64,000 nucleotides of DNA from NCBI GenBank assembly GCA_021208605.1, contig JAJOJK010000002.1, positions 37,606-101,605 of the forward strand, in the 5' to 3' direction. Source of the DNA: Candidatus Woesebacteria bacterium (GTDB taxonomy: Bacteria > Patescibacteriota > Microgenomatia > UBA1400 > UBA1396). Below the pieces are notes generated by a model. It ran no database searches. It was not told the DNA's origin and saw only the letters and a list, made by a program, of their open reading frames with translations. Below are positions 6,014 to 50,465 of the stretch, in pieces (within the stretch, counting starts at the first letter, position 1; each line of letters begins with the position of its first letter). The translations under genes were made by a program, and so were the position numbers.

Positions 6014-6085
6014 GGCCCCATCGTCTAGTGGTCTAGGACGCCAGGTTTTCATCCTGTAACCGGGGTTCGAGTCCCCGTGGGGTCA
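6014..6085 (+). tRNA. tRNA-Glu (anticodon UUC)
   Basis: Cloverleaf with acceptor GGCCCCA/TGGGGTC, anticodon loop TTTTCAT (U33, anticodon TTC), T-arm CGGGG-TTCGAGT-CCCCG and discriminator A. No CCA is encoded. Confidence 0.8.
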
Positions 6086-6092
6086 CAAAAAA

Positions 6093-8514: not shown

Positions 8515-8535
8515 GACAGCCATCAATACACAGTA

Positions 8536-9597: not shown

Positions 9598-9685
9598 TTT
9601 CCAAAAGTGATGAAGACCACGAGAACTGATTCACTCTTTCAGTATAGCGAACAGACTCCCCGCTTGTGTGTGGGTTTGGTAAGTG

Positions 9686-27308: not shown

Positions 27309-28754
27309 ATGTCTGACACACCTATTCGCACTCGTATTGCCCCATCTCCCACCGGAATTGCTCATGTAGGCACGCTCTACATCGCACTTTTCAACTACGC
27401 CTTTGCCAAGCAACATGGTGGACAATTTATTGTTCGTATTGAAGACACCGATCGCAATCGTTTTGTGGAGGGCGCCGAAGAAGTCATTTTTGAAGCACTG
27501 GAATGGGCCGGAATTGTTCCCGACGAAAGTGTGGTACATGGTGGAGAGTATGGTCCCTATCGCCAATCTGAGCGCCTTGAGACGTATCAACAATACGTGG
27601 AACAACTCATTGAACAAGGTGATGCCTACTATTGTTTCTGTACTTCAGAGCGCCTGGCCGACATGCGCGCCGCTCAACAAGCCGCAAAACAGCCACCAAA
27701 ATATGATCGTCACTGCTTGCATACGTATTCTTTGGAAGAAGCGCGCCAAAAAGTTGCTGCTGGAGAGCAGTACGTAGTGAGATTGCGTGTGCCAGAAGGT
27801 AAATCCCAGTGGACGGATATGATTCGCGGTGATGTGGAGATTGACCACGCGCAGATCGACGACCAAGTCCTCCTGAAGTCTGACGGCTTCCCCACGTATC
27901 ACATGGCCGTGGTGGTCGATGATCACTTGATGGGAATTACTCATGTCATGCGCGGTGAAGAATGGATTAGCTCGACACCAAAGCATCTTATTCTGTACGA
28001 AAAACTGGGCTTTCCTGTTCCTCAGTATGCCCATATGCCTCTGCTGCGTAACACCGATAAATCGAAGCTTTCCAAACGAAAAAATGATGTCTCCATTGTC
28101 AGCTATCGCGATAAAGGCTATTTGCCACAAGCTTTACTGAACTTCTTGATGTTGCTCGGATGGTCTCATCCTGACAACAAAGAATTCCCCATCTCTTTGG
28201 AAGAATTTGTGCGCGTTTTTGATATGGATCGAATGCAAAAAACCGGACCCGTTTTTGACGTTGAGAAACTCAATTGGATGAACGGAAAATACCTCCGTGA
28301 AGTACTTTCCCAAACTGAAGTAGCCGAAAGAGTACAACAGTACTTGCCAGAAAATTATCCGGTAGAAAATATTCCGTTGTATCTGCCATTGGTGCTGGAT
28401 CGCATGGGCACTCTGCTCGATTTTGCTGATCTAACTGACTTTTTCTATCAAGACACCGCGATCGACACCGACCAATTGCTCAAAAAAGGCGCAACTCCAG
28501 AGCTCGTAGTGCAACAACTCCAAGAAACAGCAACGGCTCTAGAGGCCTTACCGGAATGGAAACACGAGACTATTGAAACAGCTGTCCGCGCTTTGCAAGA
28601 ACTGCATACCTGGAAAAAAGGTCAGTACTTTATGATGCTCCGCTTGGCTGCCACCGGCCGCAAAGCAACGCCGCCTCTTTTTGAAACGATTCATGCTATT
28701 GGCAAGGAACGTGTATTGGGACGTTTCGCTGATTGTATAGAAACTTTGCGCTAG
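27309..28754 (+). CDS. gltX: Glutamyl-tRNA synthetase
   Basis: Motifs PSPTGIAHVGT (HIGH-type) and KLSKRKN (KMSKS-type). Confidence 0.9.
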   Translation: MSDTPIRTRIAPSPTGIAHVGTLYIALFNYAFAKQHGGQFIVRIEDTDRNRFVEGAEEVIFEALEWAGIVPDESVVHGGEYGPYRQSERLETYQQYVEQLIEQGDAYYCFCTSERLADMRAAQQAAKQPPKYDRHCLHTYSLEEARQKVAAGEQYVVRLRVPEGKSQWTDMIRGDVEIDHAQIDDQVLLKSDGFPTYHMAVVVDDHLMGITHVMRGEEWISSTPKHLILYEKLGFPVPQYAHMPLLRNTDKSKLSKRKNDVSIVSYRDKGYLPQALLNFLMLLGWSHPDNKEFPISLEEFVRVFDMDRMQKTGPVFDVEKLNWMNGKYLREVLSQTEVAERVQQYLPENYPVENIPLYLPLVLDRMGTLLDFADLTDFFYQDTAIDTDQLLKKGATPELVVQQLQETATALEALPEWKHETIETAVRALQELHTWKKGQYFMMLRLAATGRKATPPLFETIHAIGKERVLGRFADCIETLR

Positions 28755-30392: not shown

Positions 30393-31673
30393 TTATTTAA
30401 CGGAGTTTTTAATCTCACTCTCGATGTGGAGCAAACGGTTATACTTGCTCACTCGCTCACCTCTGGTCGGACCAACTTTAATGAATCGACTTCCCACGGC
30501 AACGGCTACATCTACCATCGCCGTATCGTTCGTTTCGCCGCCGCCGCGATGCGAAGTAGTCGTCATCATGCCGTGCTGCTTGGCCAACATGCAGGTGGCG
30601 ATCGTTTCGGATACAGATCCAATTTGGTTGAGTTTAATGAGAATGGCAGAAATAGCCTGTTCGTCTATGGCGCGTTGAAGGCGTTCGGTATTCGTAACGG
30701 TAAGATCATCACCGATTAACGGGACATTGAATTTCTTCGTGAGCGGTAAAAATTCGCTCCAAGCCGTCCAGTCATCCTCGTGGAACATGTCTTCCAGCGT
30801 AGCAATTGGGTATTTTTCGAGCCACGTTTGGTAATACGCCATGAGTTCATTTGCGGTCAACTTTCTGTTCTCAACAGCTAAGTGATAGAGGCCATCGGCA
30901 TAGAACTCGCTCGCAGCTGCGTCGATAGAAATACCAATTTCTTTGCCTGGTTGGTAGCCGGCCTGTTCGATGGCGGCGACTAAATATCCAAACGGAGCTT
31001 CATTTGTTGCAATGCCATTGGGAGCAAATGCTCCTTCGTTACCGACATTCGTAGAAAGGCCTTCTTTTTGCAAAATCTTCTTCAACTGATGGTATGACTC
31101 CAGCACTTTTCGTACTGATTCTGATGGAGCAACAGATTGCGTGCTCGACAAACAGTACTCCTGCAAGTCGGTCGTGTTATCGGCGTGTTTTCCGCCTTCA
31201 ATAGCCACCACCATGGGTTGTGGCAACTGATCGGGTGATTCGAGGTCTAAGCCAGTCTGAAATTGGTCTGCTAAGTATCGATACAGTGGCTGTCCAACTT
31301 CTTTCGCCGCGGCCCGTGCCACAGCTACCGAAACGGCCAATACCGCATTTCCACCCAGCGTAGCCTTATTGGAAGTACCATCCAGATCCAGCATCTGCTG
31401 ATCGATCGATTTTTGGTCGAGAGGATTCTGGCCAACAAGTTCAGGAGCAATTGTGTTTTCAATAGTCTGGACTACCGATTGCATGCCCTTCCCTAAATAA
31501 CGATCACCCCCATCGGTCAACACAGTGGCTTCGTGAGAACCAGCCGAGGCACCATACGGCACCGAAGCACGTGCAACTAGTCCAGAAGACAACTCAACTT
31601 CCGCTTCCACAGTGGGATATCCACCAGAAGCAAGAATCTCGAGAGCTGAAATACGTTTAATGGTAGTAGACAC
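30393..31673 (-). CDS. eno: Enolase
   Basis: 426 aa with a conserved enolase N-terminus (SGGYPTVEAEVELSSG...) and catalytic region. Confidence 0.92.
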   Translation of the reverse strand: MSTTIKRISALEILASGGYPTVEAEVELSSGLVARASVPYGASAGSHEATVLTDGGDRYLGKGMQSVVQTIENTIAPELVGQNPLDQKSIDQQMLDLDGTSNKATLGGNAVLAVSVAVARAAAKEVGQPLYRYLADQFQTGLDLESPDQLPQPMVVAIEGGKHADNTTDLQEYCLSSTQSVAPSESVRKVLESYHQLKKILQKEGLSTNVGNEGAFAPNGIATNEAPFGYLVAAIEQAGYQPGKEIGISIDAAASEFYADGLYHLAVENRKLTANELMAYYQTWLEKYPIATLEDMFHEDDWTAWSEFLPLTKKFNVPLIGDDLTVTNTERLQRAIDEQAISAILIKLNQIGSVSETIATCMLAKQHGMMTTTSHRGGGETNDTAMVDVAVAVGSRFIKVGPTRGERVSKYNRLLHIESEIKNSVK

Positions 31674-31703
31674 AACGACCTCCTTTGTTGCAGTACTGAG
31701 TAC

Positions 31704-32177
31704 TTACTCTGCTTTACTGACTTCGAGCAACTCAACTTCAAAAACAAGTGGAGCACTTGGCGGAATTGCACCCGGAACACCACGCTCGCCATAGGCCATG
31801 TCAGATGGAATGGTCAGTTTACGAGTGCCGCCTTCTTGCATTCCGGCTACACCTTCGTCCCAACCTTGAATCACTTGGCCGCCACCGAGTTCAAATGTAA
31901 ATGGTGTATTGCGATTGTGGGAAGAATCAAAGACAGTGCCGTCCATGAGCGTGCCGGTGTAGTGCACCGTCACCATGTCGCCCGCTTCAGCGGTTTGGCC
32001 TTCACCGACGGTGATGTCTTCGGTGATGAGTTCTTTTACTTCAGGTTGCGTGTTATCGTTCATGGATGTGTCTCCAGTGTTTTGTGTTGGTGCAGTGTCC
32101 GATGTCGTGACGGTACAACCAGCAAACAGCAGGCCGCTGACCACCACGCTACCGAGCAGAAAGGAAAAGCGTTTCAT
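31704..32177 (-). CDS. FKBP-type peptidyl-prolyl isomerase lipoprotein
   Basis: Lipobox LLFAGC followed by an FKBP domain ([18 protein letters not shown]...GWDEGVAGM). Confidence 0.85.
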
Positions 32178-32214: not shown

Positions 32215-33423
32215 TTATTTTGGGAAGTAGGTTTTGTTTTTTAGCGTGTCAGGCAGAAGACTCTCATTTTTGTCTGGATAGGCTTCATACCCTTCACCAT
32301 AACCGAGCTCTTTCATGAGTTTCGTGGGAGCATTGCGAAGATTCTTGGGAATAGGCAAATTGCCGGTTTTTTCAACGTCACGCAAGGCGGCAAAATAGGC
32401 ATCGTAAGCGGTTCGATCTTTCTTGGCTTTGGCTAAATACGCTGCACCGTGGGCTAAGTTGATTTGGGCCTCTGGATATCCAGTTTTATGAACTGCATCA
32501 AACACGGCGTTCGCGACCACCAATGCAGTTGGTTGGGCAAGTCCGACATCTTCGGAAGCAAAAATAACCATCCGCCGCGCAATAAATTTCGGATCTTCCC
32601 CGCCATGGACCAAACGAGCCAAGTAATACAGTGCGGCATCGACATTGCTGGCGCGCATGCTTTTGATAAAGGCGCTAATGGTGTCATAATGCTGTTCGCC
32701 GCTTTTATCGTAACGCGTTAAGTGGTGGCCAATACTTTCGAGTTGTTGTTTCGTTACTTCACCATAGGTTTGCCAGGCGTGGTCAAGTAAAGTCAGCAGT
32801 TGCCGGGCATCACCATTGGCTTGACGAATAGCTTCATGGATGACGTTGGTATCCGTTTCTTTGGCACCGAGACTCTGCAGGGCTTTGCGCGCTAAGTTTT
32901 CTAAGTCTTCTAGGGAAAGTTCTTCCAAAACGTATACCCGCATACGGGAAAGGAGTGGCGAAATTACTTCAAAAGATGGATTTTCTGTTGTTGCACCGAT
33001 CAAAATAATAGTGCCGTCTTCAACATATGGCAACAAAAAATCTTGCTGTGCTTTCGTGAAACGATGAATTTCATCGAGGAACAAAACCGGCGTACGATGT
33101 GATTGCGTGAGCATTTTCTGCGGGGCTTTGGAGTCTTCAATAACTTTCCGGACATCCGCTTTAGAAGCCGAAACCGCAGACAACTCAATAAATGGCCGAT
33201 TACTCGCTTTGGCCAGAATTCGAGCCAGGGTTGTTTTCCCGACACCAGGCGGTCCCCAGAAAATCATTGAGTAGACGTCTTCCTGCTCGACTAACCGCCG
33301 AAGCGGCTTGCCCGTGCCAATAAGATGCGCCTGACCAACCACCTCGTCCAGAGTAGTCGGTCGCAATAAGTGAGCAAGCGGAGATGAATTTGGCATATTC
33401 CCATTGTACAACGCGTGGTACAA
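32215..33423 (-). CDS. rarA: Replication-associated recombination protein A (AAA+ ATPase MgsA/RarA)
   Basis: Walker [12 protein letters not shown], Walker [10 protein letters not shown] and a RarA-type C-terminal domain. Confidence 0.85.
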
Positions 33424-33464
33424 TACGCTGTACTTCTCGTTAAAAGCACATGAAGTATCTGGTT

Positions 33465-33540
33465 GGGCCCGTAGCTCAGGGGTTAGAGCGACAGCCTTTT
33501 AAGCTGTGCGTCGAAGGTTCAAATCCTTCCGGGCTCACCA
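33465..33540 (+). tRNA. tRNA-Lys (anticodon UUU), CCA encoded
   Basis: Acceptor GGGCCCG/CGGGCTC, anticodon loop CTTTTAA and T-arm GAAGG-TTCAAAT-CCTTC, followed by ACCA. Confidence 0.9.
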
Positions 33541-33544
33541 ACAT

Positions 33545-34954
33545 ATGGCTTTACTTGAGAAAATCAGTAGATTACCAGGATTCAGAAGCCTCCTCCCTAA
33601 AAGAGTGGGAGATTTTTCAAGATTTAGACACATTGAGCCAGACGAAGATATTACTCGCCCTCCCAAAACTCCACCGCGGGAAGAACACATTTCTCCAGTT
33701 GTTCTAAATGAACGAAATAATAGAACATTTAAAAAAGGAATTGCCCTCTGTAAACCAGAAATACAACAAGCAATTCAGACTGCAAACGTAAACATAGAAT
33801 GGAAGACAGATTTTATTCGTCTGTTTTCGCGACTCGAAAGACTTCCACATTTACAGGTAATGCAGCTACGGCCAATTTCACTAAACCTTACAGACAATGA
33901 ATTACTAACCGCAAGTCCGTTTGCTCAACAACCACAATCGGTGATTTTTGACCCCGAGATTCGTTTCCATGGGACAAGCGCTCAAGTTTTTCCTGGTATG
34001 TCCTTAACTCTGGGAAAGGTGGCCGCCAAAATCCCCAAAGTACAAGAAAAAACAGATAAACCATACTTGAATGGATCTAGCCAACTCAATTTTGCTGCAG
34101 AAGCTTTTGCCCTGGCCGGAGAACAAACTCTAGGAACACCCGGCTTGTCCAAGTTTTATTTCCTTGGCACCCAACCATCTGGTGAAACAGTTTTTCTCAT
34201 GGAATACCATGACCCAAATAGTGAGTTTTCACTCGCCGATTTAATTCCACCTCCCGATGGCTTCAGTGCAGAAGAGATTCAAGTAATATTGGCCGCTCGC
34301 CAACCAGCAGTGTTGTCGAAACTTGTACAAAATATTTGTCTTACTTTGTCGAGTTTTCATTCGCCGCAGCGTCGACGTATAACTGCCTCTATAGATCCAT
34401 TTGACTCTTCTTTAACTATCCAAGATCGACCTTCACCAAATGCGTCCAAAGAAGAACTTCAACAACTCATCCATAGAGATTTAAAACCAGACAATATTCT
34501 AGGTAATCTATCTGGTAAAAGTACCATTTTAGACTTAGGATTCGCCAGTACAGTGCTCGAAACAACCTCTGACCAACAAGTAGGCACGCCAAAATACTCT
34601 TCTCGTGGCGAAGGTGCAGCATATGACATAAACAGTCTAGCCCTCCTTGTTCACGAAATCATTACCCGTGTCAATTATTGGCAAACTGCAATAGTTCCAG
34701 ACTATCTTCAGGCAATGGGCCTCACTGGAGCAGATCTCATTCAAGCATTGGCCTCCCTTCCGGAGATTCAGGGTAACTTGGCCATAGATAAAATTACTGC
34801 CTATTGCCAAACACACCGTATTCCATCACAACCACTTATTTCTTTTTTTGAGAGAGCCTTGCCAGGTCATGGGCCAGGATATACAGACGCTCAAGAATTT
34901 GCCGGTGACTTTGCGCAAGCTATGGGACAAAAACCTTCGAATCGTGTTCGCTAA
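33545..34954 (+). CDS. Eukaryotic-like Ser/Thr protein-kinase-domain protein with a ~140-aa N-terminal extension
   Basis: Catalytic loop HRDLKPDNIL, DLG (DFG-like), GTPKY, beta3 Lys in VAAKIPK and a degenerate Gly loop. It starts 5 nt after tRNA-Lys and is AT-rich. The ORF-track start at 33506 lies inside the tRNA and is rejected. Confidence 0.65.
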   Translation: MALLEKISRLPGFRSLLPKRVGDFSRFRHIEPDEDITRPPKTPPREEHISPVVLNERNNRTFKKGIALCKPEIQQAIQTANVNIEWKTDFIRLFSRLERLPHLQVMQLRPISLNLTDNELLTASPFAQQPQSVIFDPEIRFHGTSAQVFPGMSLTLGKVAAKIPKVQEKTDKPYLNGSSQLNFAAEAFALAGEQTLGTPGLSKFYFLGTQPSGETVFLMEYHDPNSEFSLADLIPPPDGFSAEEIQVILAARQPAVLSKLVQNICLTLSSFHSPQRRRITASIDPFDSSLTIQDRPSPNASKEELQQLIHRDLKPDNILGNLSGKSTILDLGFASTVLETTSDQQVGTPKYSSRGEGAAYDINSLALLVHEIITRVNYWQTAIVPDYLQAMGLTGADLIQALASLPEIQGNLAIDKITAYCQTHRIPSQPLISFFERALPGHGPGYTDAQEFAGDFAQAMGQKPSNRVR

Positions 34955-36131
34955 CAATGAAAATACTCGCCAGCACAATCCACGGATAAAAAATCACTGG
35001 TGCTCCCATCCCTGCTACGGCTAATACGCACCAATAGGGCCACTGCCTTCGGGATGAGTTTTTCCATAGAAAAAAAAGTGTGCCCAACAAAATACCAGCA
35101 CCCACTCCCCCACTCGTCAAAACGATTTGCAGGTATTGATTATCGACCATGCGGGCGTTGTTTGCTTTGTTCAGTTCTGGGTGCTCTCCGTATTGTTTTT
35201 GGAATGCTGCGTTCCGCTTCTCAGCAAAGGCTTCTAGATTCCATCCGCGTCCCAAAAGCATTTCTGTTACCTGCCAGTCATGGGTTTGGTAGGCAGTATG
35301 CTCCACCCGTTGTGTAATACTCTGGGTGCGTAGGAGGTTTTGTCCGGCTCCTCCACCGTCTTTTGGCAAGAGTACTAACGCAACCACAAGTATAGGGATA
35401 GCTAAAAGAACGCGTCGTTGTTTCTGAGCCAAGGCCAACGCTCCGATTCCGGCCACATACCCAACATACGCTAATCGAGAAAAACTGAGTGACATGGCAA
35501 TCAGGGCTACCGCGAAAAGTATGGCGTATACAAGTTGCTGTTTCCTCTTTACCCGTACACCAAGTTGGAAAAACCAAACACTCGCCAAAGACATCAAAAC
35601 ACCATAAAACGTCGGCTCAAAGAGCGTTGCGAATGCTCGACTGAGGTGATCATCCCATCCCAGAGTCGCAAGGATTCTTGTGTCGGGGAGGAAAAGATAC
35701 TGCCCGATTCCTAAGGCAGCCCAAGCAGTAAACCAGACAGATAGCAAGCGGGTGATCGAATGAACACGCCATCGAGATGTTTTCCAAACAGATACACTCG
35801 CCGCAAATGTCAGAAACAACGCAATCCGCAAAAGATATGCCAAGGACTGCCAATCGCTACTCACATTCAGGGGCCACATATAAAAGAGTGAAAGAGCCAG
35901 CGTCCACAGCCACCATAAACTCACGCCCCACCATATTTTTGAAGAGAAAAGTGTTTCCCAAAATGTCTTTCTCTTGGCCATGAAAAGTATGAAAACAGCC
36001 ATTCCAATTTCAAAAAGACTAATTTGTCCCAATGTTGTTGTAATCCGACCAAACTGTCCAAGCAAACTCAGCACGCCAATGGCGCCGAGTAAAAAATCTG
36101 GCCAGAGAATCTTATGCGTACCAAGCTTCAT
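34920..36131 (-). CDS. O-antigen-ligase/Wzy_C-family polytopic membrane protein
   Basis: 403 aa with about 10 TM helices and a large loop containing RMVDNQYLQIVLTSGGVGAGILL (Wzy_C-like). Confidence 0.55.
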   Translation of the reverse strand: MKLGTHKILWPDFLLGAIGVLSLLGQFGRITTTLGQISLFEIGMAVFILFMAKRKTFWETLFSSKIWWGVSLWWLWTLALSLFYMWPLNVSSDWQSLAYLLRIALFLTFAASVSVWKTSRWRVHSITRLLSVWFTAWAALGIGQYLFLPDTRILATLGWDDHLSRAFATLFEPTFYGVLMSLASVWFFQLGVRVKRKQQLVYAILFAVALIAMSLSFSRLAYVGYVAGIGALALAQKQRRVLLAIPILVVALVLLPKDGGGAGQNLLRTQSITQRVEHTAYQTHDWQVTEMLLGRGWNLEAFAEKRNAAFQKQYGEHPELNKANNARMVDNQYLQIVLTSGGVGAGILLGTLFFLWKNSSRRQWPYWCVLAVAGMGAPVIFYPWIVLASIFIVSEHDSKVFVP

Positions 36132-36903
36132 AGAGATAGACCCGCGTTATCAGTGAGTAGTAGGACATCAGGAGTGCATGCACCAGACCAGGAAAACCAT
36201 CCAGCGCTCCACGCCGCCAAAAATAATTTTGGAAAAACTTGGCCACCGGATATGTTAAAAGCTGTGTAATCAGGGTCAGTTTTGTCGTGCGATGCCGCGC
36301 TTTTGCCTCGAGCGAAGCGTACCACTGCAGTTTCTGCAAAAACTCTGTCACGGTCGGGTGCGGCGTGTGCAAGAGCGCGTGTTTGGTTGTGAGAACGCGT
36401 TCGGTGGGAATTTCCCAGACTTCGTGGACCGCGCGTTGCCACTTCCCCTGAGCAATATACGTGCGTGCGAGCCGCAGCACCGTTGTGTGACCGGTTTCTC
36501 CGTATCGTAACTGGTGCCCCAAAAAGATATCTCGCCGCGGAAAAAGCACCGCATCAAGTTCTTTTTCCTGCAAAGCGGTTGTAATCTCTTGCCACACCTC
36601 TGGCCCGGCATACTCATCGGCATCCAAAAAGAAAGTCCATTCAGTTTCGACTTGATCGAGAGCGTCATTGCGATGGCTGGCAAAATTTCCTTGCAGAGGG
36701 TTTTTCTCTACGCGCACCTTTTGGGAGAACTGCTGCAAATCAACTAAGGTAGTTTCATCTCCAGTGCCATCATCCCAGACCAAAATGTGCGCAACTCGCG
36801 GAGCGTATTCTTGCACTCTATCTGGTACCGGCTCCTCTCCAGCCTTACTGAGCAGCACGAGAGTGAGTGGTAATTGTGTTATTTTTCCCATAAACGTATC
36901 CAA
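36112..36903 (-). CDS. Family-2 glycosyltransferase
   Basis: DxD motif in FFLDADEY. Confidence 0.6.
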   Translation of the reverse strand: MDTFMGKITQLPLTLVLLSKAGEEPVPDRVQEYAPRVAHILVWDDGTGDETTLVDLQQFSQKVRVEKNPLQGNFASHRNDALDQVETEWTFFLDADEYAGPEVWQEITTALQEKELDAVLFPRRDIFLGHQLRYGETGHTTVLRLARTYIAQGKWQRAVHEVWEIPTERVLTTKHALLHTPHPTVTEFLQKLQWYASLEAKARHRTTKLTLITQLLTYPVAKFFQNYFWRRGALDGFPGLVHALLMSYYSLITRVYLYEAWYA

Positions 36904-37676
36904 AAATTTGCTATTGCACCGGAAAATCCATAGTGCTTTTGTAACCAGTAGCGGCGTGAGGCGCGAAAATGATGCGCTACACTTGGCAGCTGCTTCGTGG
37001 AGTGTTGCCCAAAATGGACTACTGATGCGGTTGCTAAAAAATAGACTTCTTTATCGAGCTGAGAACGTACTCGCTGTGCCAGGTCAAACTCTTCAAAGTA
37101 CAAAAACATGTTTTCGTCACAGCCACCAATGGCTAAGAATTCTTCGCGTCGCATCATAAAACACGAGCCACTCACGCTTGGCACTGGCCGCGAAGATCGA
37201 TGATCAAATCCCCACAAGCGATAGTGTTCTCTATATGATCCAAACGCCGACAGATTCCCAAGCCAAGAATACACAATGGCCGCTTCCAAAGCCGTGGGCA
37301 CGGTACTTGAAGTAATCTGAACAGCGCCTGTTTCATCAAGTATTTGCGGGCCAATTAAACCGATTTGCGGATGAGCTCCTAAGAATTCATAGAGTGCATC
37401 AATGGCGTCTGTGGTCACGTAGACATCTGGATTCACAAAGAGTACTCCTTCACCGTGGGCTTGTTCCGCGCCGCGATTACACCCCTCTCCGAATCCGGCC
37501 TGGCCATCGGAATTATCAATCACTATGCACTCGATATGATCTGCCGATTTCAAGCTCTGTTGAATTTTTTGCACGAGCTTGTCGGCGCGATAATTGACAA
37601 TCACCACCGAAATAAGGATTCGCTTACCGCGCATGTGAGATCCTTCTAAGCGCTTGCCGCAGTACGAACCAGGCAT
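36879..37676 (-). CDS. Family-2 glycosyltransferase
   Basis: VVIVNYR...VIDNSDG. The real start may be the M at MRGKRILISV. Confidence 0.6.
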   Translation of the reverse strand: MPGSYCGKRLEGSHMRGKRILISVVIVNYRADKLVQKIQQSLKSADHIECIVIDNSDGQAGFGEGCNRGAEQAHGEGVLFVNPDVYVTTDAIDALYEFLGAHPQIGLIGPQILDETGAVQITSSTVPTALEAAIVYSWLGNLSAFGSYREHYRLWGFDHRSSRPVPSVSGSCFMMRREEFLAIGGCDENMFLYFEEFDLAQRVRSQLDKEVYFLATASVVHFGQHSTKQLPSVAHHFRASRRYWLQKHYGFSGAIANFWIRLWEK

Positions 37677-38883
37677 ATGGATGAACCACTACAAAGGCAA
37701 AGAACACCGCCCAGCTAGCACCTGGCAATCCGTAGCGCGGCGCTAAGAAAACAATTCCAAGAATCAAAACAAACATCATAATGATGTTCATCACAAAATG
37801 GTGCTGCAAATTGTTCGCCAAAATTGAAAGTGGATTCCAGCTAGTAATAAACGCTTTTGCGACACCTGCGAGGAACAAAATTCGTACGATTGGTGTGACA
37901 ACGAGCCATTCTTCGCCAAGTACAAAATAGACTAACGGTTGCGTGAAGAACAGAAATGGCACCGCTGCGAAAAGAAAAACAACCGTAAGCGCCACGACAG
38001 AAAACTGCCAAGTCTTGGTGATACTCTTTTTCCGTTCAACTTTTTGTGCGTACATTGGGTACAGCGTCTGACCCACTATCGAACCGAAATCCATTGTGGC
38101 AGCACTTGCCAGTTTGTATGCGGTTTGATAAAAACCGAGAGCAGTAAATCCAAGGTACTTTCCAATAAGAAAGTCGTCAATATTTTCAGTCAAGTAATGC
38201 ACAATACTGGTGCCGATAATGTACTTCGACTCTTGAAACAACGAAACGACTCGACTCCATTGCGCCTTGAGAAGATTTGGTCGTTCCGGAAAGAGCGAAA
38301 AGGAAAGAATCACTTCCGCAACAACAGCAGCTGCGATTCCCAACAACAATCCGATACCATTTTGGAGCCAAATCGCCAAAACACCTCCCAGTACTAAGTC
38401 GATCACCTGAACACCTATGCGCAGTGCAGACTCGCGCTCAAACTGCAGTCGTTGCTGAAACTGCACAATGGCGGGATTGATAAAACCCCGCAGAAAAGGA
38501 ATAATCGCGGCAATAGATAAGTAATAGGTCAAACTCGGCTGGTCATAAAATTGTGCCAACAATGGAGCACACAAAAGAATACCGAGACTAATCAGAGTGC
38601 CGCGAAACAGTGAGACTACCCAAGCGGTGTCATAGTACCAGGCAAATTTTTTGGGCTGCTTGAGCAATACAACATTAATGCCAGTTTCCGTAAAGACTTC
38701 GGTTACGGAAATAACGAGTACCGACAATCCAAACAAACCAAGCTGTTCGGGACCCAGAATGCGAGCAATGATCGCTAAACGCACCAGTGTCAGAAACTTC
38801 GTGAAATACTTCATGAATGAAATTGCCGAGATCCCACGGACCGCAACAGATGAATGAGCGCGATGGAACAGTGTTTTAAGCAT
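37624..38883 (-). CDS. Wzx-like MOP-superfamily polysaccharide flippase
   Basis: 419 aa with 12-14 TM helices, resembling the polysaccharide biosynthesis protein family. Confidence 0.6.
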   Translation of the reverse strand: MLKTLFHRAHSSVAVRGISAISFMKYFTKFLTLVRLAIIARILGPEQLGLFGLSVLVISVTEVFTETGINVVLLKQPKKFAWYYDTAWVVSLFRGTLISLGILLCAPLLAQFYDQPSLTYYLSIAAIIPFLRGFINPAIVQFQQRLQFERESALRIGVQVIDLVLGGVLAIWLQNGIGLLLGIAAAVVAEVILSFSLFPERPNLLKAQWSRVVSLFQESKYIIGTSIVHYLTENIDDFLIGKYLGFTALGFYQTAYKLASAATMDFGSIVGQTLYPMYAQKVERKKSITKTWQFSVVALTVVFLFAAVPFLFFTQPLVYFVLGEEWLVVTPIVRILFLAGVAKAFITSWNPLSILANNLQHHFVMNIIMMFVLILGIVFLAPRYGLPGASWAVFFAFVVVHPYAWFVLRQALRRISHAR

Positions 38884-39901
38884 GCGTAGACCGGTCTTGT
38901 CTTTGATTATACAGGCGTTGCATGAGTCCTGTCAGTGTCCCAGACAAAACGGCCGTATCCGTCATGAATTGGTACCAGGGGTACAGAAGCCAGGATTGGG
39001 CAAAACGGAATCGGAAACGTCTGCCCTTAATACCAATATAGGCACTGAGAACAAGAAAAAGCGCAAAAACACTCCAAAATACTGAATTGGTGCGCCACAG
39101 CAGAAAAGCGGTCACTGCCAAAAAGAAAAGGTAGCGCATCCACATACTCGCATGTCCCCATCGCCATGTAGCAGCCAGCATGTCGCCACGAGTTAGGTGG
39201 AAAATCATACGCCAGTAGGCAAGCGCGGTTGTTCGCGGTGTCCAGACAACTTCTGCATCTGGCACAAAAACTGATTGGAATCCTTTCAATTCGGCGCGAC
39301 GCGACCACTCAAAATCTTCGGCATAGTTCAGATCATCTCGGAATGGGCCAATTTCTTGCCAGGCAGAAACACGCACCGCCATATTTCGCGTAGCGGGTAA
39401 GGGATGAGTCCCAATTTTTTCTCTCGACACTAACACAAATGCAGACTGAACTTCTTCTGCTGGTGAAGTCTCAGCGCCGCGAGTATAGCCAGAAACCAAT
39501 TGAACACCAGACAGTGAAAATGCGTGAATAATACTTTCGAGCCAAGAGGCAGACAGTTGGCAACCGGCGTCAGTAAAGCATACTACCGTTCCACTCGCTG
39601 CATCGACGGCACGGTTTCTTCCAGTAGATCGAGTAGCACTCCCTGGGATTGAAATAGCCTGTACTTTGATTCCTTTTGGACGCCAATTGTGCGCGACGCC
39701 AAGCGAATCATCACTCGATTCGGCCACAGTAATGACTACTTCATCAGGCAAAACAGTTTGTTTTTCTAAATCGTGCAGCAGTTCTTGCAGCGCAGCGGCG
39801 TCGTTTTTTACCGTTACAATCACTGAGAATCGCTGCTGCTGCATATGCGTAGTATCGCAAACCGTACACTTTTTGTCAGTATCAGGCGATATGGTTGACA
39901 C
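38876..39901 (-). CDS. Family-2 glycosyltransferase with C-terminal membrane anchor
   Basis: FSVIVTVKND followed by C-terminal TM helices. The start is likely the internal MQQQRFSV. Confidence 0.6.
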   Translation of the reverse strand: MSTISPDTDKKCTVCDTTHMQQQRFSVIVTVKNDAAALQELLHDLEKQTVLPDEVVITVAESSDDSLGVAHNWRPKGIKVQAISIPGSATRSTGRNRAVDAASGTVVCFTDAGCQLSASWLESIIHAFSLSGVQLVSGYTRGAETSPAEEVQSAFVLVSREKIGTHPLPATRNMAVRVSAWQEIGPFRDDLNYAEDFEWSRRAELKGFQSVFVPDAEVVWTPRTTALAYWRMIFHLTRGDMLAATWRWGHASMWMRYLFFLAVTAFLLWRTNSVFWSVFALFLVLSAYIGIKGRRFRFRFAQSWLLYPWYQFMTDTAVLSGTLTGLMQRLYNQRQDRSTHA

Positions 39902-41731
39902 ATGTCGCGATGGCTAATGCGTTTGGGAGTTGTGACCACTGTGTGGTGGAGCATGTGTTTTCTTTGCTCGCCAGCGCTTGCCACGTCTGTCTTCCAGTCT
40001 GATTTTTCTGATTCGATTGCCTGGCAAGAGGTGTTTAACAGCCAGGTTGATGCACCCGACCAGACGTGTCGTGGAGCAGATGGCGAGCACCATTGGTCTG
40101 TCGGAAATGGAGAGGCCAGACTGCAGATTACGCAAAGTGTGCCCTGTAAAGCAGTGATTGTCGCTCAAGAGGATATTCCATGGCCAGAAGTGGCTGATAT
40201 CTCCTTTGATATGGACCTAACGATCGCTGAAATGGACCGAAATCTGCTCATTCGTTGGCAGGACGCCAATAACTATCTTGGTTTTCACCTCTTTGGAAAC
40301 ACAGTGACACTAGAAAAGGTAATTGATGGAAACACGTATGCCGTTTCGCCCCAAGCAGTGTATTTTCATTTCGAAAATTTCAAGACGTACTCCGTTCGTA
40401 TGCACTATGACCAAACCGCTGGAGTAATTCGCCTTTGGTTTGATGACGAGCTGATCTATACCGGTCAGGAGCATTCATCAGACCCACAACTCACCAGAGG
40501 GAAACCCGCCCTCGGCGGCAGTGTTGGCGCGGTCCGTACATCCACAGTAGTTTTTCGTAATTACTCTTTGCAAGATATCGGTGAGGAACTTACGCTCTCT
40601 GTCCCAGCATTCCGCCAAAATAATCCGCTGTGGACCGAAATTGAGTATGACACAGCCAGTAGGTGGACTTCGGAATCACCGACGATCGGCCGCTGGGGTT
40701 GTGCCCTCACTAGCGCCGTGATGGTATTGCGGTATCACGGAATCACCGCTTTGCCAGATGGGCGGAGTATTGACCCTTTGACACTCAACACTTGGCTCCA
40801 CAACCAGCCGGACGGCTATATTTCTCCTGGACTAGTAAACTGGCGCGCTCTTACCCGGCTGACTTGGTGGCACAAAGAAGCATTCGGCACACCGGCACTA
40901 GAAATGCACTCTGAACTGCTGACCGAAAACGCAATAGCGTGGTCAAAAAACTCACTGCAGTCTGCGGTCCCACCGATTTTTGATCATGGCGGTCATTTCA
41001 CTGTCGGGTATGCGTATGGCCCAGGTGAATCTCAGATCCATCTGCATGATCCGTTGGGTGAAAAACAAACACTGCAGGACTATCATAATACTGTGCACTC
41101 GGCTCGTGTCTTTGTGCCAAGTCACACCGATCTGCGCGCAATCTCGTTACTGGTACAACCAGGAACACGCGCCACTTTTGCCAGCAACGATGAACCACTG
41201 CAGATTGAGCCAATACCGCTTTTTGCACTAGAAAGTGCCTCTTCTCTCCCTCTCTACTGGCTGTATGATCTCCCCCAACCGCCTGATTCACTCACTTTCA
41301 CCATCTCCACCCAACTTCCTGCCGATACTCCACAGCTGCTCACCTACGCTCGCGATGGTTCGCTCACAAGTCAAAAAACTTGGCTGCAGACGTCGCACAC
41401 TGACTTCCAAGGTTCCATTTACGCTACCGAAGATACCGTACAGGCAGATTTCTCTCTGCCTCCGCTCAACCAAAGCCAACCTGTTTTCTCGCCGCTCGCT
41501 CTGCATACTTGGCTGTCGTGGGGTGATATTCGTTCTCCTCTCATTACGCAGTTTGTGGCAGAACAGTATGCTCAGTTGCACAATGCTCCGACGCAAACTG
41601 AAGCCGAAGAGATCAGTAATTTCTTTATGGCCAAGCTTACCTCATGGCATCAGTTGAGTTGGATTACAGCGAGCTCCTATCAGGCCCTCACGCTGGCGTG
41701 GCACCAGAGCCTGCTCGATCGCTTCCCCTGA
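39902..41731 (+). CDS. Secreted two-domain protein: N-terminal concanavalin/LamG-like beta-sandwich plus C39-like (papain-fold) peptidase domain
   Basis: Signal peptide. GRWGCALTSAVMVLRYHGI matches the catalytic-Cys motif of C39-like domains, and HGGHFTVGYAY supplies a His. The start may be the MRLGVV codon at 39917. Confidence 0.5.
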   Translation: MSRWLMRLGVVTTVWWSMCFLCSPALATSVFQSDFSDSIAWQEVFNSQVDAPDQTCRGADGEHHWSVGNGEARLQITQSVPCKAVIVAQEDIPWPEVADISFDMDLTIAEMDRNLLIRWQDANNYLGFHLFGNTVTLEKVIDGNTYAVSPQAVYFHFENFKTYSVRMHYDQTAGVIRLWFDDELIYTGQEHSSDPQLTRGKPALGGSVGAVRTSTVVFRNYSLQDIGEELTLSVPAFRQNNPLWTEIEYDTASRWTSESPTIGRWGCALTSAVMVLRYHGITALPDGRSIDPLTLNTWLHNQPDGYISPGLVNWRALTRLTWWHKEAFGTPALEMHSELLTENAIAWSKNSLQSAVPPIFDHGGHFTVGYAYGPGESQIHLHDPLGEKQTLQDYHNTVHSARVFVPSHTDLRAISLLVQPGTRATFASNDEPLQIEPIPLFALESASSLPLYWLYDLPQPPDSLTFTISTQLPADTPQLLTYARDGSLTSQKTWLQTSHTDFQGSIYATEDTVQADFSLPPLNQSQPVFSPLALHTWLSWGDIRSPLITQFVAEQYAQLHNAPTQTEAEEISNFFMAKLTSWHQLSWITASSYQALTLAWHQSLLDRFP

Positions 41732-43343: not shown

Positions 43344-44096
43344 ATGGCTAAGAATATCAGAGAAACTTCAGAACAAAGATTACGTCGGTATCGAGATGCT
43401 GTTCGTAATTATAACTTTATTTTAAGCGATCTTACCTTTTCACAACGTTTTTCACAGGCGGAACTTGATAACAAGAAAGCCGTGCTCACCTGGACTACTG
43501 AAAACCCAGGTTTATTTCAAGACCTCCTTCTCCCTCGCTTCATACCCGACATTGCTGATACTCTCCAGCATGCTTCAAGCAGGGAGAAGTCTCATATAGA
43601 AACATTCGCCGCCTATATGCTGTACACCTATCTTGTTTTACCGCTTGTCATGGACGGTTTTGGAACCAATGATTCTGCTCGAGATACCTGGGAGAAAACT
43701 GTCCAAAACAACCACATGCTCCTTGGAAAACCGCTCATTGAAGAAAATGCCCTTCGGGTGAACCCAATGACAGATGTATTCGGTTCCGTGGAAATACTCC
43801 TCGACACGCCTGAAAATACTGAGCGAAACGATCAAACTATTTTGCAAAAAGGAAAACTCGCCCCGCATCCTCAACAGGTACTTGGCATGAATACCACGTT
43901 GCAAACGACAATTGCTCAAAACGATTTTTATAAGCAACTTCCACTGGAAGAAAAATTGGCATTTGTTCATAGCGTGCGATACCTCGCTGCGCAAGCACTG
44001 CTCGCCTATACACCACCACGTCTCCACCCAAATTTCCACCCCATGCATCTCATTGAGAGAACATACATGCGCCTGCGAGCCACCAAGATCCGCTAA
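43344..44096 (+). CDS. Hypothetical protein (250 aa), AT-rich, adjacent to tRNA-Val
   Basis: No motif recognised. Confidence 0.45.
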   Translation: MAKNIRETSEQRLRRYRDAVRNYNFILSDLTFSQRFSQAELDNKKAVLTWTTENPGLFQDLLLPRFIPDIADTLQHASSREKSHIETFAAYMLYTYLVLPLVMDGFGTNDSARDTWEKTVQNNHMLLGKPLIEENALRVNPMTDVFGSVEILLDTPENTERNDQTILQKGKLAPHPQQVLGMNTTLQTTIAQNDFYKQLPLEEKLAFVHSVRYLAAQALLAYTPPRLHPNFHPMHLIERTYMRLRATKIR

Positions 44097-46408: not shown

Positions 46409-47008
46409 ATGCATCACGCGATCTCTCAGGTAAATCAGGCAGTGAGAGCAGTCACTTTATCTGTTAAGCGTTTTATTTGGAACCTCATGTTTGCTTTGAT
46501 AGTTTTCGTGATGCTTTTAAGTAGCAGCTCTTTACTTTCTTTTCAGGCGCGTCTTCCCCTAAAGTCTTATTATTGGGTACTTCAGTTTGTGAGCCTCATT
46601 ATCGCTTCATGTGTTGCATATTCGGTAGGACAATTTGTTACTAAAAAGAAAAAAAGCACTCTCATTTATTGTGGCCTACTCCTTATTTTTGCTCCGATAA
46701 CCCTTTTGTTATTTATTCAGGGAACAAACACACTTTCCGCAATGAGAGTTCACTCACTCAGTAGCACTTCCTCCATACAAGGCGATTACATTTCTATTAA
46801 TGGACATAATTTTGGCGACGCATGGGAAGCTGGTACAGTTACCGTGGGAGGAACAAACTTTATTATTGTTCGATGGGAAAATGAAAAAGTCGTCATAAAG
46901 CAACCGGTGACAGAACCAGTTGATAACGCTGTTTTGCGCATCTGCAATGCACAAGATATCTGCGACGAATACAAATACTTTACTATTCTGGATCCGAGCA
47001 CTTTATGA
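46409..47008 (+). CDS. Membrane protein with a C-terminal IPT/TIG-like extracellular domain
   Basis: 2-3 TM helices followed by ISINGHNFG...VTVGGTNFIIVRWENEKVVIKQP. Confidence 0.45.
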   Translation: MHHAISQVNQAVRAVTLSVKRFIWNLMFALIVFVMLLSSSSLLSFQARLPLKSYYWVLQFVSLIIASCVAYSVGQFVTKKKKSTLIYCGLLLIFAPITLLLFIQGTNTLSAMRVHSLSSTSSIQGDYISINGHNFGDAWEAGTVTVGGTNFIIVRWENEKVVIKQPVTEPVDNAVLRICNAQDICDEYKYFTILDPSTL

Positions 47009-50463: not shown

Positions 50464-50465
50464 AG

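What the first reader, a model, noticed from the sequence alone, without database searches (positions are those of the whole stretch)
33465..34954. Eukaryotic-like protein kinase gene fused to the 3' side of tRNA-Lys in an AT-rich islet
The ORF begins 5 nt after the tRNA-Lys CCA. It carries the canonical catalytic loop HRDLKPDNIL, a DLG activation-loop start, GTPKY and a VAAK beta3 lysine, but has a degenerate glycine loop and a ~140-aa N-terminal extension with no TM helix or signal peptide. Its composition is more AT-rich than the flanking genes, and tRNA 3' ends are classic integration sites. It is a candidate horizontally acquired signalling or effector kinase. No integrase remains nearby.
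Basis: partly seen in the sequence, partly recalled or inferred. Interest (0 to 1): 0.6.

Follow-up and report, generated by a model that had tools for sequence, protein, structure and literature searches.

The report
Orphan fast-evolving kinase abutting tRNA-Lys
A real but very divergent Ser/Thr protein kinase gene starts four bases after a lysine tRNA in a Candidatus Woesebacteria genome; it is not a recent foreign insertion, because it sits in the same place in the only close relative, where it has diverged far more than its neighbours.

Summary

The island interpretation is not supported. There is no repeat of the tRNA 3' end and no integrase nearby. The only close relative found (RarA 87% identical) has the same tRNA-Lys/kinase junction in perfect synteny, and its copy also has low GC3.

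The two kinases are only 31% identical, against 81-88% for flanking housekeeping genes. Yet the catalytic residues D312, K314, N317, D330 and E186 are all conserved, as is K169, one of the two candidates for the beta3 lysine. An exhaustive search of 1.84 billion cluster representatives found no other family member.

Best reading: a vertically inherited, lineage-restricted, rapidly diverging soluble kinase with a private N-terminal domain. It is probably co-transcribed with the tRNA from a conserved extended -10 promoter and translated as a near-leaderless mRNA after tRNA processing. That step is inferred. Its cellular role (signalling, defence or host interaction) is unresolved.

Moderate interest; new member of a known kind.

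The parts
33416..33424 (+). Extended -10 promoter-like box TGgTACAAT, about 40 nt upstream of tRNA-Lys. It is the presumed promoter of a tRNA-Lys/kinase co-transcript.
   Evidence: It is conserved as TGaTATAAT at the same position in L001, in otherwise diverged intergenic DNA. It lies back to back with a TACAAT box on the minus strand (33403-33408), 6 nt before the RarA ATG at 33396. Function is inferred, not shown.
33465..33540 (+). tRNA-Lys (anticodon UUU) with encoded CCA.
   Evidence: ARAGORN; Rfam tRNA 69.8 bits. Identical through the second C of the CCA to the tRNA in L001, whose end reads CCG instead of CCA.
33541..33544 (+). 4-nt spacer ACAT between the tRNA CCA and the start codon. 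It leaves no room for a Shine-Dalgarno site or a promoter.
   Evidence: Direct reading of the sequence. In L001 the equivalent stretch is ATT after CCG.
33545..34954 (+). The kinase ORF, 469 aa, annotated in GenBank as a hypothetical protein (MCD8506830.1 and others, Candidatus Woesebacteria).
   Evidence: A full-length ortholog of 454 aa lies in L001 at 8515-9879 (-). Indels in the first codons between the orthologs are 6 and 3 nt long, which indicates coding constraint from the first ATG.
33545..33679 (+). N-terminal tail, residues 1-45, predicted disordered, containing a PPKxPP motif.
   Evidence: pLDDT about 40, yet 48% identical between the orthologs, against 35% overall in the MAFFT alignment (31% by BLASTP).
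33680..33949 (+). Private N-terminal helical domain, residues about 46-135.
   Evidence: AF2 pLDDT 67-93 by 10-residue block, with four helices, a strand and more helices. Nothing in Pfam, the PDB sequences or 1.84 billion representatives resembles it, apart from the ortholog.
33968..34939 (+). Protein kinase domain, residues about 142-465.
34028..34051 (+). Beta3 region KVAAKIPK-VQEK. The candidate catalytic lysine is K162 (34028-34030) or K169 (34049-34051).
   Evidence: K162 falls in the near-invariant Lys column of the 49-sequence alignment and in AF2 strand 157-164. K169 is the Lys aligned by hhalign and is invariant in the ortholog pair.
34100..34102 (+). Alpha-C glutamate E186.
   Evidence: Invariant in the ortholog pair and near-invariant in the 49-kinase alignment.
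34361..34459 (+). Insertion of about 31 aa (residues about 273-305) between helix alpha-E and the catalytic loop.
   Evidence: It is a gap in the hhalign template. It is shorter in L001, and pLDDT is about 61 over residues 281-300.
34472..34495 (+). Catalytic loop HRDLKPDN (H310-N317).
   Evidence: D312, K314 and N317 are invariant. The ortholog has HCDIKPEN, that is, non-RD.
34532..34540 (+). DLG (DFG-equivalent), D330-G332.
   Evidence: D330 and G332 are invariant across 49 kinases. It reads DFG in the ortholog.
34920..34954 (.). 35-nt overlap of the 3' ends of the kinase ORF and the convergent Wzy_C (O-antigen-ligase-like) gene at 34920-36131 (-).
   Evidence: In L001 the two genes are 47 nt apart.

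Best explanation
The gene encodes a soluble, probably catalytically active Hanks-type Ser/Thr protein kinase. It belongs to a tiny, lineage-restricted family seen so far in two Woesebacteria-like species. The kinase core is PknB-like. It carries a private structured N-terminal domain of about 90 aa, a conserved disordered N-tail, a degenerate glycine loop, an insertion before the catalytic loop, and no APE-Glu / subdomain-XI-Arg pair.

It is a resident gene, inherited vertically at least since the two species split. It evolves far faster than its neighbours and keeps a low GC3 in both lineages.

Expression (inferred): the gene has no promoter or ribosome-binding site of its own. It is transcribed together with tRNA-Lys from a conserved extended -10 promoter. 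Removal of the tRNA (RNase P at its 5' end, an endonucleolytic cut at or just after its 3' end) leaves an mRNA whose AUG lies within 0-7 nt of the 5' end. That mRNA would be translated in the leaderless mode, which appears common in this genome.

The cellular target of the kinase is unknown.

The confidence of 0.65 is for the whole statement. Taken separately, I put 'kinase-fold resident gene' at about 0.9 and the tRNA-processing/leaderless expression step at about 0.5.
For: **Shown: it is a kinase.**
- Pfam Pkinase scores above the gathering threshold.
- hhalign gives 99.7% over both the N-lobe and C-lobe.
- H310, N317, D330, G332 and D361 are invariant across 49 kinases. D312, K314, E186 and K162 are >=90% conserved there.
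- D312, K314, N317, D330, E186 and K169 are invariant in an ortholog pair that is only 31% identical.

**Shown: it is a resident gene.**
- The tRNA-Lys/kinase junction is the same in L001, and gene order matches from tRNA-Val to the glutamyl-tRNA-synthetase-like gene.
- The identical 469-aa protein occurs on 5 contigs of the collection (at least two NCBI assemblies and two Logan run assemblies); the three places read show the same synteny.

**Shown: fast evolution and orphan status.**
- The kinase pair is 31% identical. Housekeeping neighbours are 81-88% identical and the glycan genes 42-68%.
- phmmer over 1.84e9 representatives gave only the gene's own fragment and the L001 ortholog. All other hits covered only residues about 305-375 or a little more.
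- Word-indexed searches with the N-terminal halves found nothing else.

**Shown: composition.** GC3 is 0.311 here and 0.338 in L001.

**Supporting the expression model.**
- The spacer is 4 nt and the extended -10 box is conserved.
- There is no promoter-like site between the tRNA and the ATG. The single promoter-like site in 2.1 kb lies inside the ORF, and the count is below shuffle expectation.
- 18 of 50 window genes have a TAnnnT box ending 4-10 nt before the ATG, against 4.1 +- 1.9 expected. Only 14 of 50 have an SD-like motif.
- Among 21 tRNAs in about 2 Mb of fetched loci, only these two orthologous tRNA-Lys genes have an ORF of >=150 aa starting within 15 nt.
Against: - No expression data exist, so co-transcription, the processing site and leaderless translation are all inferred.
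- The glycine loop lacks the second and third glycines. The APE glutamate and the subdomain XI arginine are absent, so reduced or atypical activity is possible.
- The AF2 model was built on an alignment of generic kinases, so its resemblance to PknB is partly built in.
- Only one relative genome was available. 'Vertical inheritance' therefore rests on two species.
- One sister assembly carries the gene broken by two homopolymer indels. This may mean the gene is dispensable, or it may be sequencing error.
Confidence: 0.65

Rival explanations
1. A horizontally acquired islet, integrated at the 3' end of tRNA-Lys. It would be the remnant of a mobile element whose integrase has been lost.
For: GC3 is low at 0.311, z about -2 against the window genes. 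The gene sits next to a tRNA 3' end. It has no homologs in other lineages, so its origin cannot be traced. An acquisition that predates the split from the L001 lineage is not excluded.
Against: - No repeat of the tRNA 3' end is present: the 25-mer with up to 3 mismatches was searched over the whole window, and repeats of >=12 nt over 33300-36500.
- There is no integrase or other mobile-element gene within +-3 kb.
- The 'islet' is a single gene with no spare DNA. It starts 4 nt from the tRNA and overlaps the next gene by 35 nt.
- The same junction and synteny occur in the relative.
- Low GC3 persists in both orthologs despite 69% amino-acid divergence. That fits a gene-specific steady state better than an un-ameliorated import.
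- The ATG position relative to the tRNA is conserved, which is unexpected for an att scar.
Confidence: 0.1
2. A conflict gene. It would be either a stand-alone anti-phage (abortive-infection type) Ser/Thr kinase like PD-T4-6 or Stk2, or a kinase delivered to or acting on the host cell of this presumably episymbiotic bacterium. An arms race would explain the extreme divergence. This reading concerns function and is compatible with the vertical-inheritance reading.
For: - It is the fastest-diverging gene of 14 syntenic genes.
- It is an orphan family, a single-gene unit without a sensor or TM domain, and has low GC3.
- It may be inactivated in one population.
- PADLOC PD-T4-6 models are its best defence-library hits, at E 4e-8 and 2e-11.
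- Its conserved disordered N-tail carries a proline-rich motif.
Against: - The PADLOC, PHROG and LegK1 matches cover only the generic catalytic core. They score like any kinase: NCBIfam LegK1 23.9 bits against a cutoff of 550, and MAD6 and PglW far below their cutoffs.
- The neighbours are housekeeping and glycan-synthesis genes, not defence or secretion genes.
- There is no signal peptide.
Confidence: 0.25
3. A decaying gene or pseudokinase. The ORF would be a relaxed-constraint relic or a non-catalytic scaffold, and its position after the tRNA would have no significance for expression.
For: - The glycine loop is degenerate and the APE/Arg pair is missing.
- Identity to the ortholog is very low, and GC3 is low.
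- In one assembly the gene is split into three fragments by A6->A7 and A4->A3 indels.
Against: - The ORFs are intact in both species: 469 and 454 aa at 31% identity. Without selection, stop codons would have accumulated.
- All residues needed for phosphotransfer are conserved.
- Indels between the orthologs are in-frame from the first codons.
- The activation segment co-varies with the RD/non-RD state. The HRD form has Thr/Ser-rich TVLETTSDQQ. The HCD form has acidic HPVEEGD.
Confidence: 0.1

Closest known systems
Bacterial Hanks-type (eukaryote-like) Ser/Thr kinases, e.g. the M. tuberculosis PknB catalytic domain (PDB 1mru, 1o6y, 5u94)
   Different: - No TM segment and no PASTA or other sensor domain. 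NCBIfam PknB_PASTA_kin scores 25 bits against a cutoff of 450.
- The glycine loop is G-T-S-A-Q-V instead of GxGxxG.
- It has a 31-aa insertion before the catalytic loop.
- The APE Glu and the subdomain XI Arg are absent.
- It has a private N-terminal domain of about 135 aa.
- It is only 18-23% identical.
Stand-alone defence kinases (PADLOC PD-T4-6; staphylococcal Stk2, the latter from my own knowledge)
   Same: A single-gene, soluble Ser/Thr kinase without a sensor domain, fast-evolving and patchily distributed. These models are its best PADLOC hits.
   Different: The matches are restricted to the generic catalytic core. The locus has no defence-island context, and no functional evidence exists.
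tRNA-mRNA co-transcripts and tRNA 'punctuation': the E. coli thrU-tyrU-glyT-thrT-tufB operon, and animal mitochondrial transcripts in which excision of tRNAs releases leaderless mRNAs (from my own knowledge)
   Same: A tRNA lies immediately upstream of a coding sequence on the same strand, with no intervening promoter. Excising the tRNA would define the mRNA 5' end at or next to the AUG.
   Different: In tufB a normal leader with an SD follows the tRNAs, whereas here only 4 nt follow. Mitochondrial punctuation is genome-wide, whereas here it is seen at one of the three tRNAs in the window. Processing is not demonstrated here.
tRNA-gene-targeted genomic islands and integrative elements
   Same: Position at the 3' side of a tRNA gene, and deviant base composition.
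   Different: No integrase, no att-type direct repeat, a single gene with no spare DNA, and conservation in the relative at the same junction.

Membership tests
Protein kinase superfamily, Hanks-type / Pfam PF00069 Pkinase | Profile score at or above the curated threshold | tested here: met
   37.1 bits against a gathering score of 31.7, E 2.9e-9, but only over profile positions 117-199. The precomputed Pfam hit PF00069 is also on record for both orthologs.
Protein kinase superfamily, Hanks-type / Pfam PF00069 Pkinase | Complete bilobal fold (N-lobe beta sheet plus alpha-C, and a C-lobe) | tested here: met
Protein kinase superfamily, Hanks-type / Pfam PF00069 Pkinase | Catalytic residues: beta3 Lys, alpha-C Glu, HRD Asp, catalytic-loop Asn, DFG Asp | tested here: met
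   K162 or K169, E186, D312, N317 and D330 are conserved in the 49-sequence alignment and in the 31%-identical ortholog. Which lysine is the catalytic one remains ambiguous.
Protein kinase superfamily, Hanks-type / Pfam PF00069 Pkinase | Canonical glycine-rich loop GxGxxG | tested here: not met
   H-G-T-S-A-Q-V-F here and Q-G-G-A-A-Q-F-L in the ortholog, aligned to x-G-G-M-G-Q-V-F. Only the Gly aligned to the second glycine of GxGxxG is kept in both. This motif is typical of the family but not strictly required for membership.
Protein kinase superfamily, Hanks-type / Pfam PF00069 Pkinase | APE motif Glu paired with the subdomain XI Arg | tested here: not met
   YSSRGEG and YSSLNTG stand in place of Y(M/L)(A/S)PE. 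Y or F stands at the position of the subdomain XI Arg (ALPGHGPGYTDAQEF / ALPKGSDSGFANAAEF).
Protein kinase superfamily, Hanks-type / Pfam PF00069 Pkinase | Phosphotransferase activity | not testable with these tools
   Needs purified protein.
tRNA-targeted genomic island | Site-specific integrase (tyrosine or serine recombinase) in the element | tested here: not met
   The genes within +-3 kb are enolase, FKBP, RarA/MgsA, Wzy_C, two GT2 genes and a Polysacc_synt flippase. The ORF list for 30-39 kb shows nothing else.
tRNA-targeted genomic island | Direct repeat of the tRNA 3' end at the far border | tested here: not met
   The 25-mer of the tRNA 3' end occurs only once in 64 kb, even with 3 mismatches. 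No repeat of >=12 nt involving the tRNA occurs in 33300-36500.
tRNA-targeted genomic island | Variable presence at the same tRNA in close relatives | tested here: not met
   It is present at the identical junction in L001, the only close relative found. More distant Patescibacteria (RarA 57-65% identical) do not share the gene order at all, so they are uninformative.
tRNA-targeted genomic island | Deviant base composition | tested here: met
   GC3 0.311 against 0.460 +- 0.074. The same deviation appears in the ortholog.
PknB/Stk1 PASTA kinases (NF033483) | Equivalog score; TM segment plus extracellular PASTA repeats | tested here: not met
   25.3 bits against a cutoff of 450. No hydrophobic segment is present.
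Dot/Icm effector kinase LegK1 (NF043056); BREX PglW; MADS MAD6 | Equivalog score | tested here: not met
   23.9 against 550, 8.7 against 990, and 10.7 against 460 bits.
PD-T4-6 defence kinases (PADLOC) | Full-length match to a PD-T4-6 model, and a defence phenotype | tested here: inconclusive
   The best hits are E 3.9e-8 (window) and 2e-11 (ortholog). They cover only 75-130 residues of the catalytic core, and this library has no curated cutoffs. The phenotype is not testable here.
Leaderless or tRNA-punctuated mRNA | mRNA 5' end at or within a few nt of the AUG, generated by tRNA excision | not testable with these tools
   Only indirect support exists: the 4-nt spacer, the absence of an SD or promoter, the conserved upstream extended -10 box, and a genome-wide leaderless signature in 18 of 50 genes.

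The most novel reading that the evidence does not exclude
In this Candidate Phyla Radiation (CPR) bacterium, a tRNA would serve as the 5' processing signal of a protein-coding mRNA. That would be a bacterial counterpart of mitochondrial tRNA punctuation: excision of tRNA-Lys creates the (near-)leaderless mRNA of an orphan kinase. Kinase synthesis would then be tied to tRNA-Lys transcription and processing. The kinase itself would be a rapidly evolving conflict factor (phage defence or host manipulation) private to this genus-level lineage.
Probability: 0.25. Interest if true: 0.65.

Novelty: new member of a known kind. Interest (0 to 1): 0.35.

Why it matters
The locus matters on three counts.
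- **Kinase annotation.** The gene adds a highly divergent, currently 'hypothetical' Hanks-type kinase with a private N-terminal domain to the sparse signalling repertoire known for Patescibacteria.
- **A caution for island calling.** A tRNA-adjacent, AT-rich, orphan gene is not necessarily an island. Here both the composition and the position are conserved in a relative, and the anomaly reflects a gene-specific evolutionary regime.
- **A testable model of expression.** The conserved 3-4-nt tRNA/start-codon junction sits in a genome with a strong leaderless-promoter signature. It is a clean place to test whether tRNA processing can define mRNA 5' ends for leaderless translation in bacteria.

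None of this changes a major paradigm unless the processing model or a conflict function is demonstrated.

Tried and rejected
- **Word-indexed homolog search with the full protein**. It returned nothing, not even the protein itself. Most likely the 8000-candidate limit was filled by generic kinases that share catalytic-loop words. Repeating it with the N-terminal 300 aa and with the ortholog's N-terminal 280 aa found only the proteins themselves.
- **Genome-contig scan with the kinase**. No relative was found. The second scan used RarA instead and found L001.
- **Metagenome-contig scan with the two-sequence alignment**. It returned only generic kinases matching residues about 200-390 at 26-44% identity, and no family member.
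- **AF2 with the two-sequence alignment**. It failed at pLDDT 34. Adding 47 generic kinases gave a usable model.
- **afdb50 fold search**. The library was unavailable.
- **Viral fold library and PHROGs**. They gave only generic kinase matches, mostly from giant and eukaryotic viruses, so a phage origin is not indicated.
- **Literature search for the assembly and run accessions**. Nothing was found.
- **RNA folding of the mRNA 5' end and the tRNA-mRNA junction**. No structure stood out from shuffles (z -0.16, -1.58 and -0.78).
- **An internal start codon fed by the promoter-like site at 33625-33652**. I rejected this because residues 1-105 are conserved in frame with the ortholog, and the indels there are 3 and 6 nt long.
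- **A functional link to the adjacent glycan cluster.** I rejected this as unsupported. The genes are convergent, not operonic, and the kinase has no TM domain and is not of the BY-kinase type.
Full report
**1. What is in the sequence**

ARAGORN finds tRNA-Lys(UUU) at 33465-33540 on the + strand, and Rfam confirms it at 69.8 bits. The sequence reads ...CGGGCTCACCA ACAT ATGGCT.... The ATG at 33545 therefore follows the encoded CCA after a 4-nt spacer. The ORF ends at 34954 and encodes 469 aa. The mechanical ORF list extends it to a GTG inside the tRNA, which I disregard.

No 19-residue window is hydrophobic enough for a TM helix (maximum Kyte-Doolittle mean 1.03).

**2. Is it a kinase?**

The sequence evidence is consistent:
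- Pfam Pkinase is passed at 37.1 bits against a gathering score of 31.7, but the match covers only residues 306-381, from the catalytic loop to the activation segment.
- PDB sequence hits (MEK1/2, PAK1, StkP) and NCBIfam hits cover the same short core. They lie far below every equivalog cutoff.
- To test the N-lobe, I aligned the protein with its ortholog (alignment A1) and compared that profile with 30 bacterial Hanks kinases. hhalign gave probability 99.7% and E 6e-26. Residues 142-381 aligned to template positions 20-213.

That alignment places these elements:
- the glycine loop (hGTSAQVF against vGGMGQVF);
- the beta3 strand;
- the alpha-C Glu (E186);
- the hinge (VFLMEYHD);
- an insertion of about 31 residues between alpha-E and the catalytic loop.

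In that alignment H310, P315, N317, D330, G332 and D361 are invariant. K162, E186, R311, D312 and K314 are conserved in at least 90% of sequences.

The beta3 lysine remains ambiguous. MAFFT and the AF2 strand 157-164 point to K162 (VAAK). hhalign and the ortholog pair point to K169 (VQEK in the window, VGLK in the ortholog).

The APE glutamate and its partner, the subdomain XI arginine, are both missing.

Residues 46-135 are predicted with high confidence as a mostly helical domain. Nothing else in the searched databases resembles it.

**3. Whose genome, and is the gene an import?**

The exact protein is in GenBank as a 'hypothetical protein' of Candidatus Woesebacteria MAGs (MCD8506830.1 and others). 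The window is identical to GCA_021209405.1 contig JAJOIK010000006.1 over the 7.4 kb compared.

Composition:

| Measure | Kinase gene | Comparison |
|---|---|---|
| GC | 0.429 | window overall 0.466 |
| GC3 | 0.311 | 50 window ORFs: mean 0.460, sd 0.074 |
| GC3 of flanking genes | - | 0.459 and 0.470 |

The kinase gene has the third-lowest GC3 of the 50 ORFs. Its GC1 and GC2 are ordinary. The 'AT-rich' observation is therefore real, but it is confined to third codon positions.

Against the island reading:
- The 25-mer at the tRNA 3' end occurs only once in the window, even allowing 3 mismatches.
- No repeat of at least 12 nt involving the tRNA lies within 3 kb.
- The neighbours are enolase, FKBP, RarA/MgsA, Wzy_C, two GT2 genes and a flippase. 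None is an integrase.

A scan of 185,579 species genomes with the kinase found nothing. A scan with the neighbouring RarA found one close relative, L001 (CAYUUK010000005.1). That record is labelled 'Pseudomonadales', but the next-best RarA matches are mostly Patescibacteria, so the label looks wrong. Its RarA is 87% identical.

L001 has the same gene order from tRNA-Val to the glutamyl-tRNA-synthetase-like gene. It has the same tRNA-Lys, identical through the second C of the CCA. A 454-aa ORF follows the tRNA; its ATG lies 3 nt after the position where a CCA would end, which reads CCG there. That ORF is the kinase ortholog at 31% identity, E 2e-55. Its GC3 is also low, at 0.338 against 0.45-0.50 for most of its neighbours.

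The gene was therefore already at this junction in the common ancestor of the two species, and the deviant composition is a stable property of the gene. More distant Patescibacteria (RarA 57-65% identical) do not have tRNA-Lys next to RarA. They are uninformative.

**4. An orphan that evolves very fast**

Amino-acid identity between the window and L001:

| Gene class | Identity |
|---|---|
| GluRS-like, phosphoglycerate-mutase-like, enolase, FKBP, RarA | 81-88% |
| Glycan-cluster genes | 42-68% |
| Kinase | 31% |

The kinase is the lowest of 14 syntenic genes.

An exhaustive phmmer search of 1.84 billion cluster representatives returned two family-level hits. One is a 171-aa frameshifted copy of this same gene. 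The other is the L001 ortholog. The other 136 hits matched only the catalytic core, roughly residues 305-375 and occasionally as far as 456. Searches with the N-terminal halves alone found nothing more. The metagenome contig scan returned only generic kinases.

Despite this divergence, both ORFs are intact and the catalytic residues are conserved.

The activation segment also co-varies with the RD state. The window protein is HRD, with a Thr/Ser-rich segment (TVLETTSDQQ). The ortholog is HCD, that is, non-RD, with an acidic segment lacking Thr (HPVEEGD). In my reading, this is what purifying selection on an active kinase would produce.

The disordered N-tail (residues 1-45, with a PPKxPP motif) is 48% identical between the orthologs, more than most of the protein.

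**5. How it is probably expressed (inferred)**

Four nucleotides leave no room for a promoter or a Shine-Dalgarno site, and none is visible in the tRNA 3' half. The only promoter-like site in 33200-35300 lies inside the ORF, and the count is below shuffle expectation.

Upstream of the tRNA, the otherwise diverged spacer keeps an extended -10 box: TGgTACAAT at 33416-33424, and TGaTATAAT in L001.

The genome seems to rely heavily on leaderless mRNAs. Of 50 window ORFs, 18 have a TAnnnT box ending 4-10 nt before the ATG, most often 6 nt. Random positions give 4.1 +- 1.9, with a maximum of 13 in 2000 trials. Only 14 of 50 ORFs have an SD-like motif.

The simplest model has three steps:
1. One transcript starts about 34 nt upstream of the tRNA.
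2. RNase P and a 3' endonuclease release tRNA-Lys.
3. The downstream fragment has its AUG within 0-7 nt of the 5' end and is translated in the leaderless mode.

[quoted passage not shown] That would fall at this start codon.

Translation from the first ATG is supported by in-frame conservation of residues 1-45 and by indels of 6 and 3 nt right after the ATG. Among 21 tRNAs in about 2 Mb of fetched loci, only these two orthologous tRNA-Lys genes have an ORF of at least 150 aa starting within 15 nt. No special RNA structure was detected at the junction.

**6. What the kinase does**

This is unresolved. It has no sensor, TM or PASTA domain, and its neighbours give no operonic clue, because the adjacent Wzy_C gene is convergent.

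Several features fit a conflict-type role (anti-phage or host-directed):
- extreme divergence;
- orphan status;
- low GC3;
- a single-gene unit.

Its best PADLOC hits are PD-T4-6 kinases. Those matches, like the PHROG, LegK1, MAD6 and PglW matches, cover only the generic core. I hold this reading at about 0.25.

A pseudokinase or decaying gene is unlikely, given the conserved catalytic set.

**7. A broken allele**

The Logan assembly of SRR12390694 (L164) shows the gene split by two single-base indels in A-runs: A6->A7 at 34047-34052 and A4->A3 at 34483-34486. The three fragment proteins of a GenBank MAG with LRY60 locus tags end at the same two positions. L164 has no substitution across the 5.1 kb compared. 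This could be genuine inactivation in one population or homopolymer error. Raw reads would decide.

**8. Verdict**

The kinase call is right. The horizontal-acquisition interpretation is not supported for any recent event.

The gene is a new, very divergent member of the Hanks-type kinase superfamily with an unusual, conserved tRNA-abutting start. That junction is the most interesting lead, because it offers a place to test tRNA-processing-generated leaderless mRNA in a CPR bacterium.

Noticed in passing
whole window; examples 10648-11103(-), 18661-21366(-), 27309-28754(+), 32215-33396(-), 43344-44096(+): Of 50 ORFs, 18 have a -10-like TAnnnT box ending 4-10 nt (most often 6) before the ATG. 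Random positions give 4.1 +- 1.9. Only 14 of 50 have an SD-like motif. This suggests that leaderless mRNAs are a major mode of expression in this Woesebacteria genome.
   Followed up: partly
window 33396-33424: Two -10 boxes lie back to back. TACAAT on the minus strand (33403-33408) sits 6 nt before the RarA ATG at 33396, so the true RarA start is probably 33396 and not the TTG at 33423. TGgTACAAT on the plus strand (33416-33424) serves tRNA-Lys.
   Followed up: partly
L164 (Logan SRR12390694) against window 34047-34052 and 34483-34486; GenBank MCD8484148-50: A sister assembly has the kinase gene split into three pieces by two single-base homopolymer indels (A6->A7 and A4->A3). It shows no substitutions across 5.1 kb. 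This is either real inactivation in one population or sequencing error.
   Followed up: partly
L001 11720-15830 against window 31673-31704: The relative carries about 4 kb extra between the FKBP and enolase genes. It includes an 836-aa ORF (L001:11720-14230, minus strand) with low GC3 (0.33) and no Pfam match. In the window these two genes are adjacent. This looks like a better candidate for a strain-specific insertion than the kinase.
   Followed up: no
window 6739-8514 (+) and 9686-10501 (-): These are the two lowest-GC3 genes of the window, at 0.285 and 0.294. The first encodes 591 aa with a weak Abhydrolase_6 match and lies about 650 nt downstream of tRNA-Glu (6014-6086). The second has no Pfam match.
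   Followed up: partly
window 46409-51437 and 56153-57070: A low-GC block (GC 0.38-0.40) encodes envelope-type proteins: a TIG-domain protein, an 848-aa ORF with no Pfam match, an LPG_synthase_TM protein and a GT2. A PGA_cap protein lies further on. Composition differs from the 0.47-0.52 of most of the window.
   Followed up: partly
window 33545-33679 (kinase residues 1-45): The predicted-disordered N-terminal tail is 48% identical between the orthologs, more than most of the protein. It contains a proline-rich T(R/K)PPK(T/P)PP motif, possibly a docking or targeting peptide.
   Followed up: no
window 35068-35069, inside the Wzy_C gene 34920-36131 (-): Assemblies of the same population differ by AG/GA next to an A8 run (ATAGAAAAAAAAG against ATGAAAAAAAAAG). 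This changes the length of the homopolymer in the O-antigen-ligase-like gene. One assembly also has a 1-nt deletion at 35055, which shortens the called Wzy_C product.
   Followed up: no
window 34920-41731 against L001: The surface-glycan cluster diverges much faster than its housekeeping neighbours: 42-68% against 81-88% amino-acid identity. It comprises Wzy_C, GT2, GT2, a flippase, a further GT-like gene and a 609-aa Peptidase_C39-like protein.
   Followed up: partly
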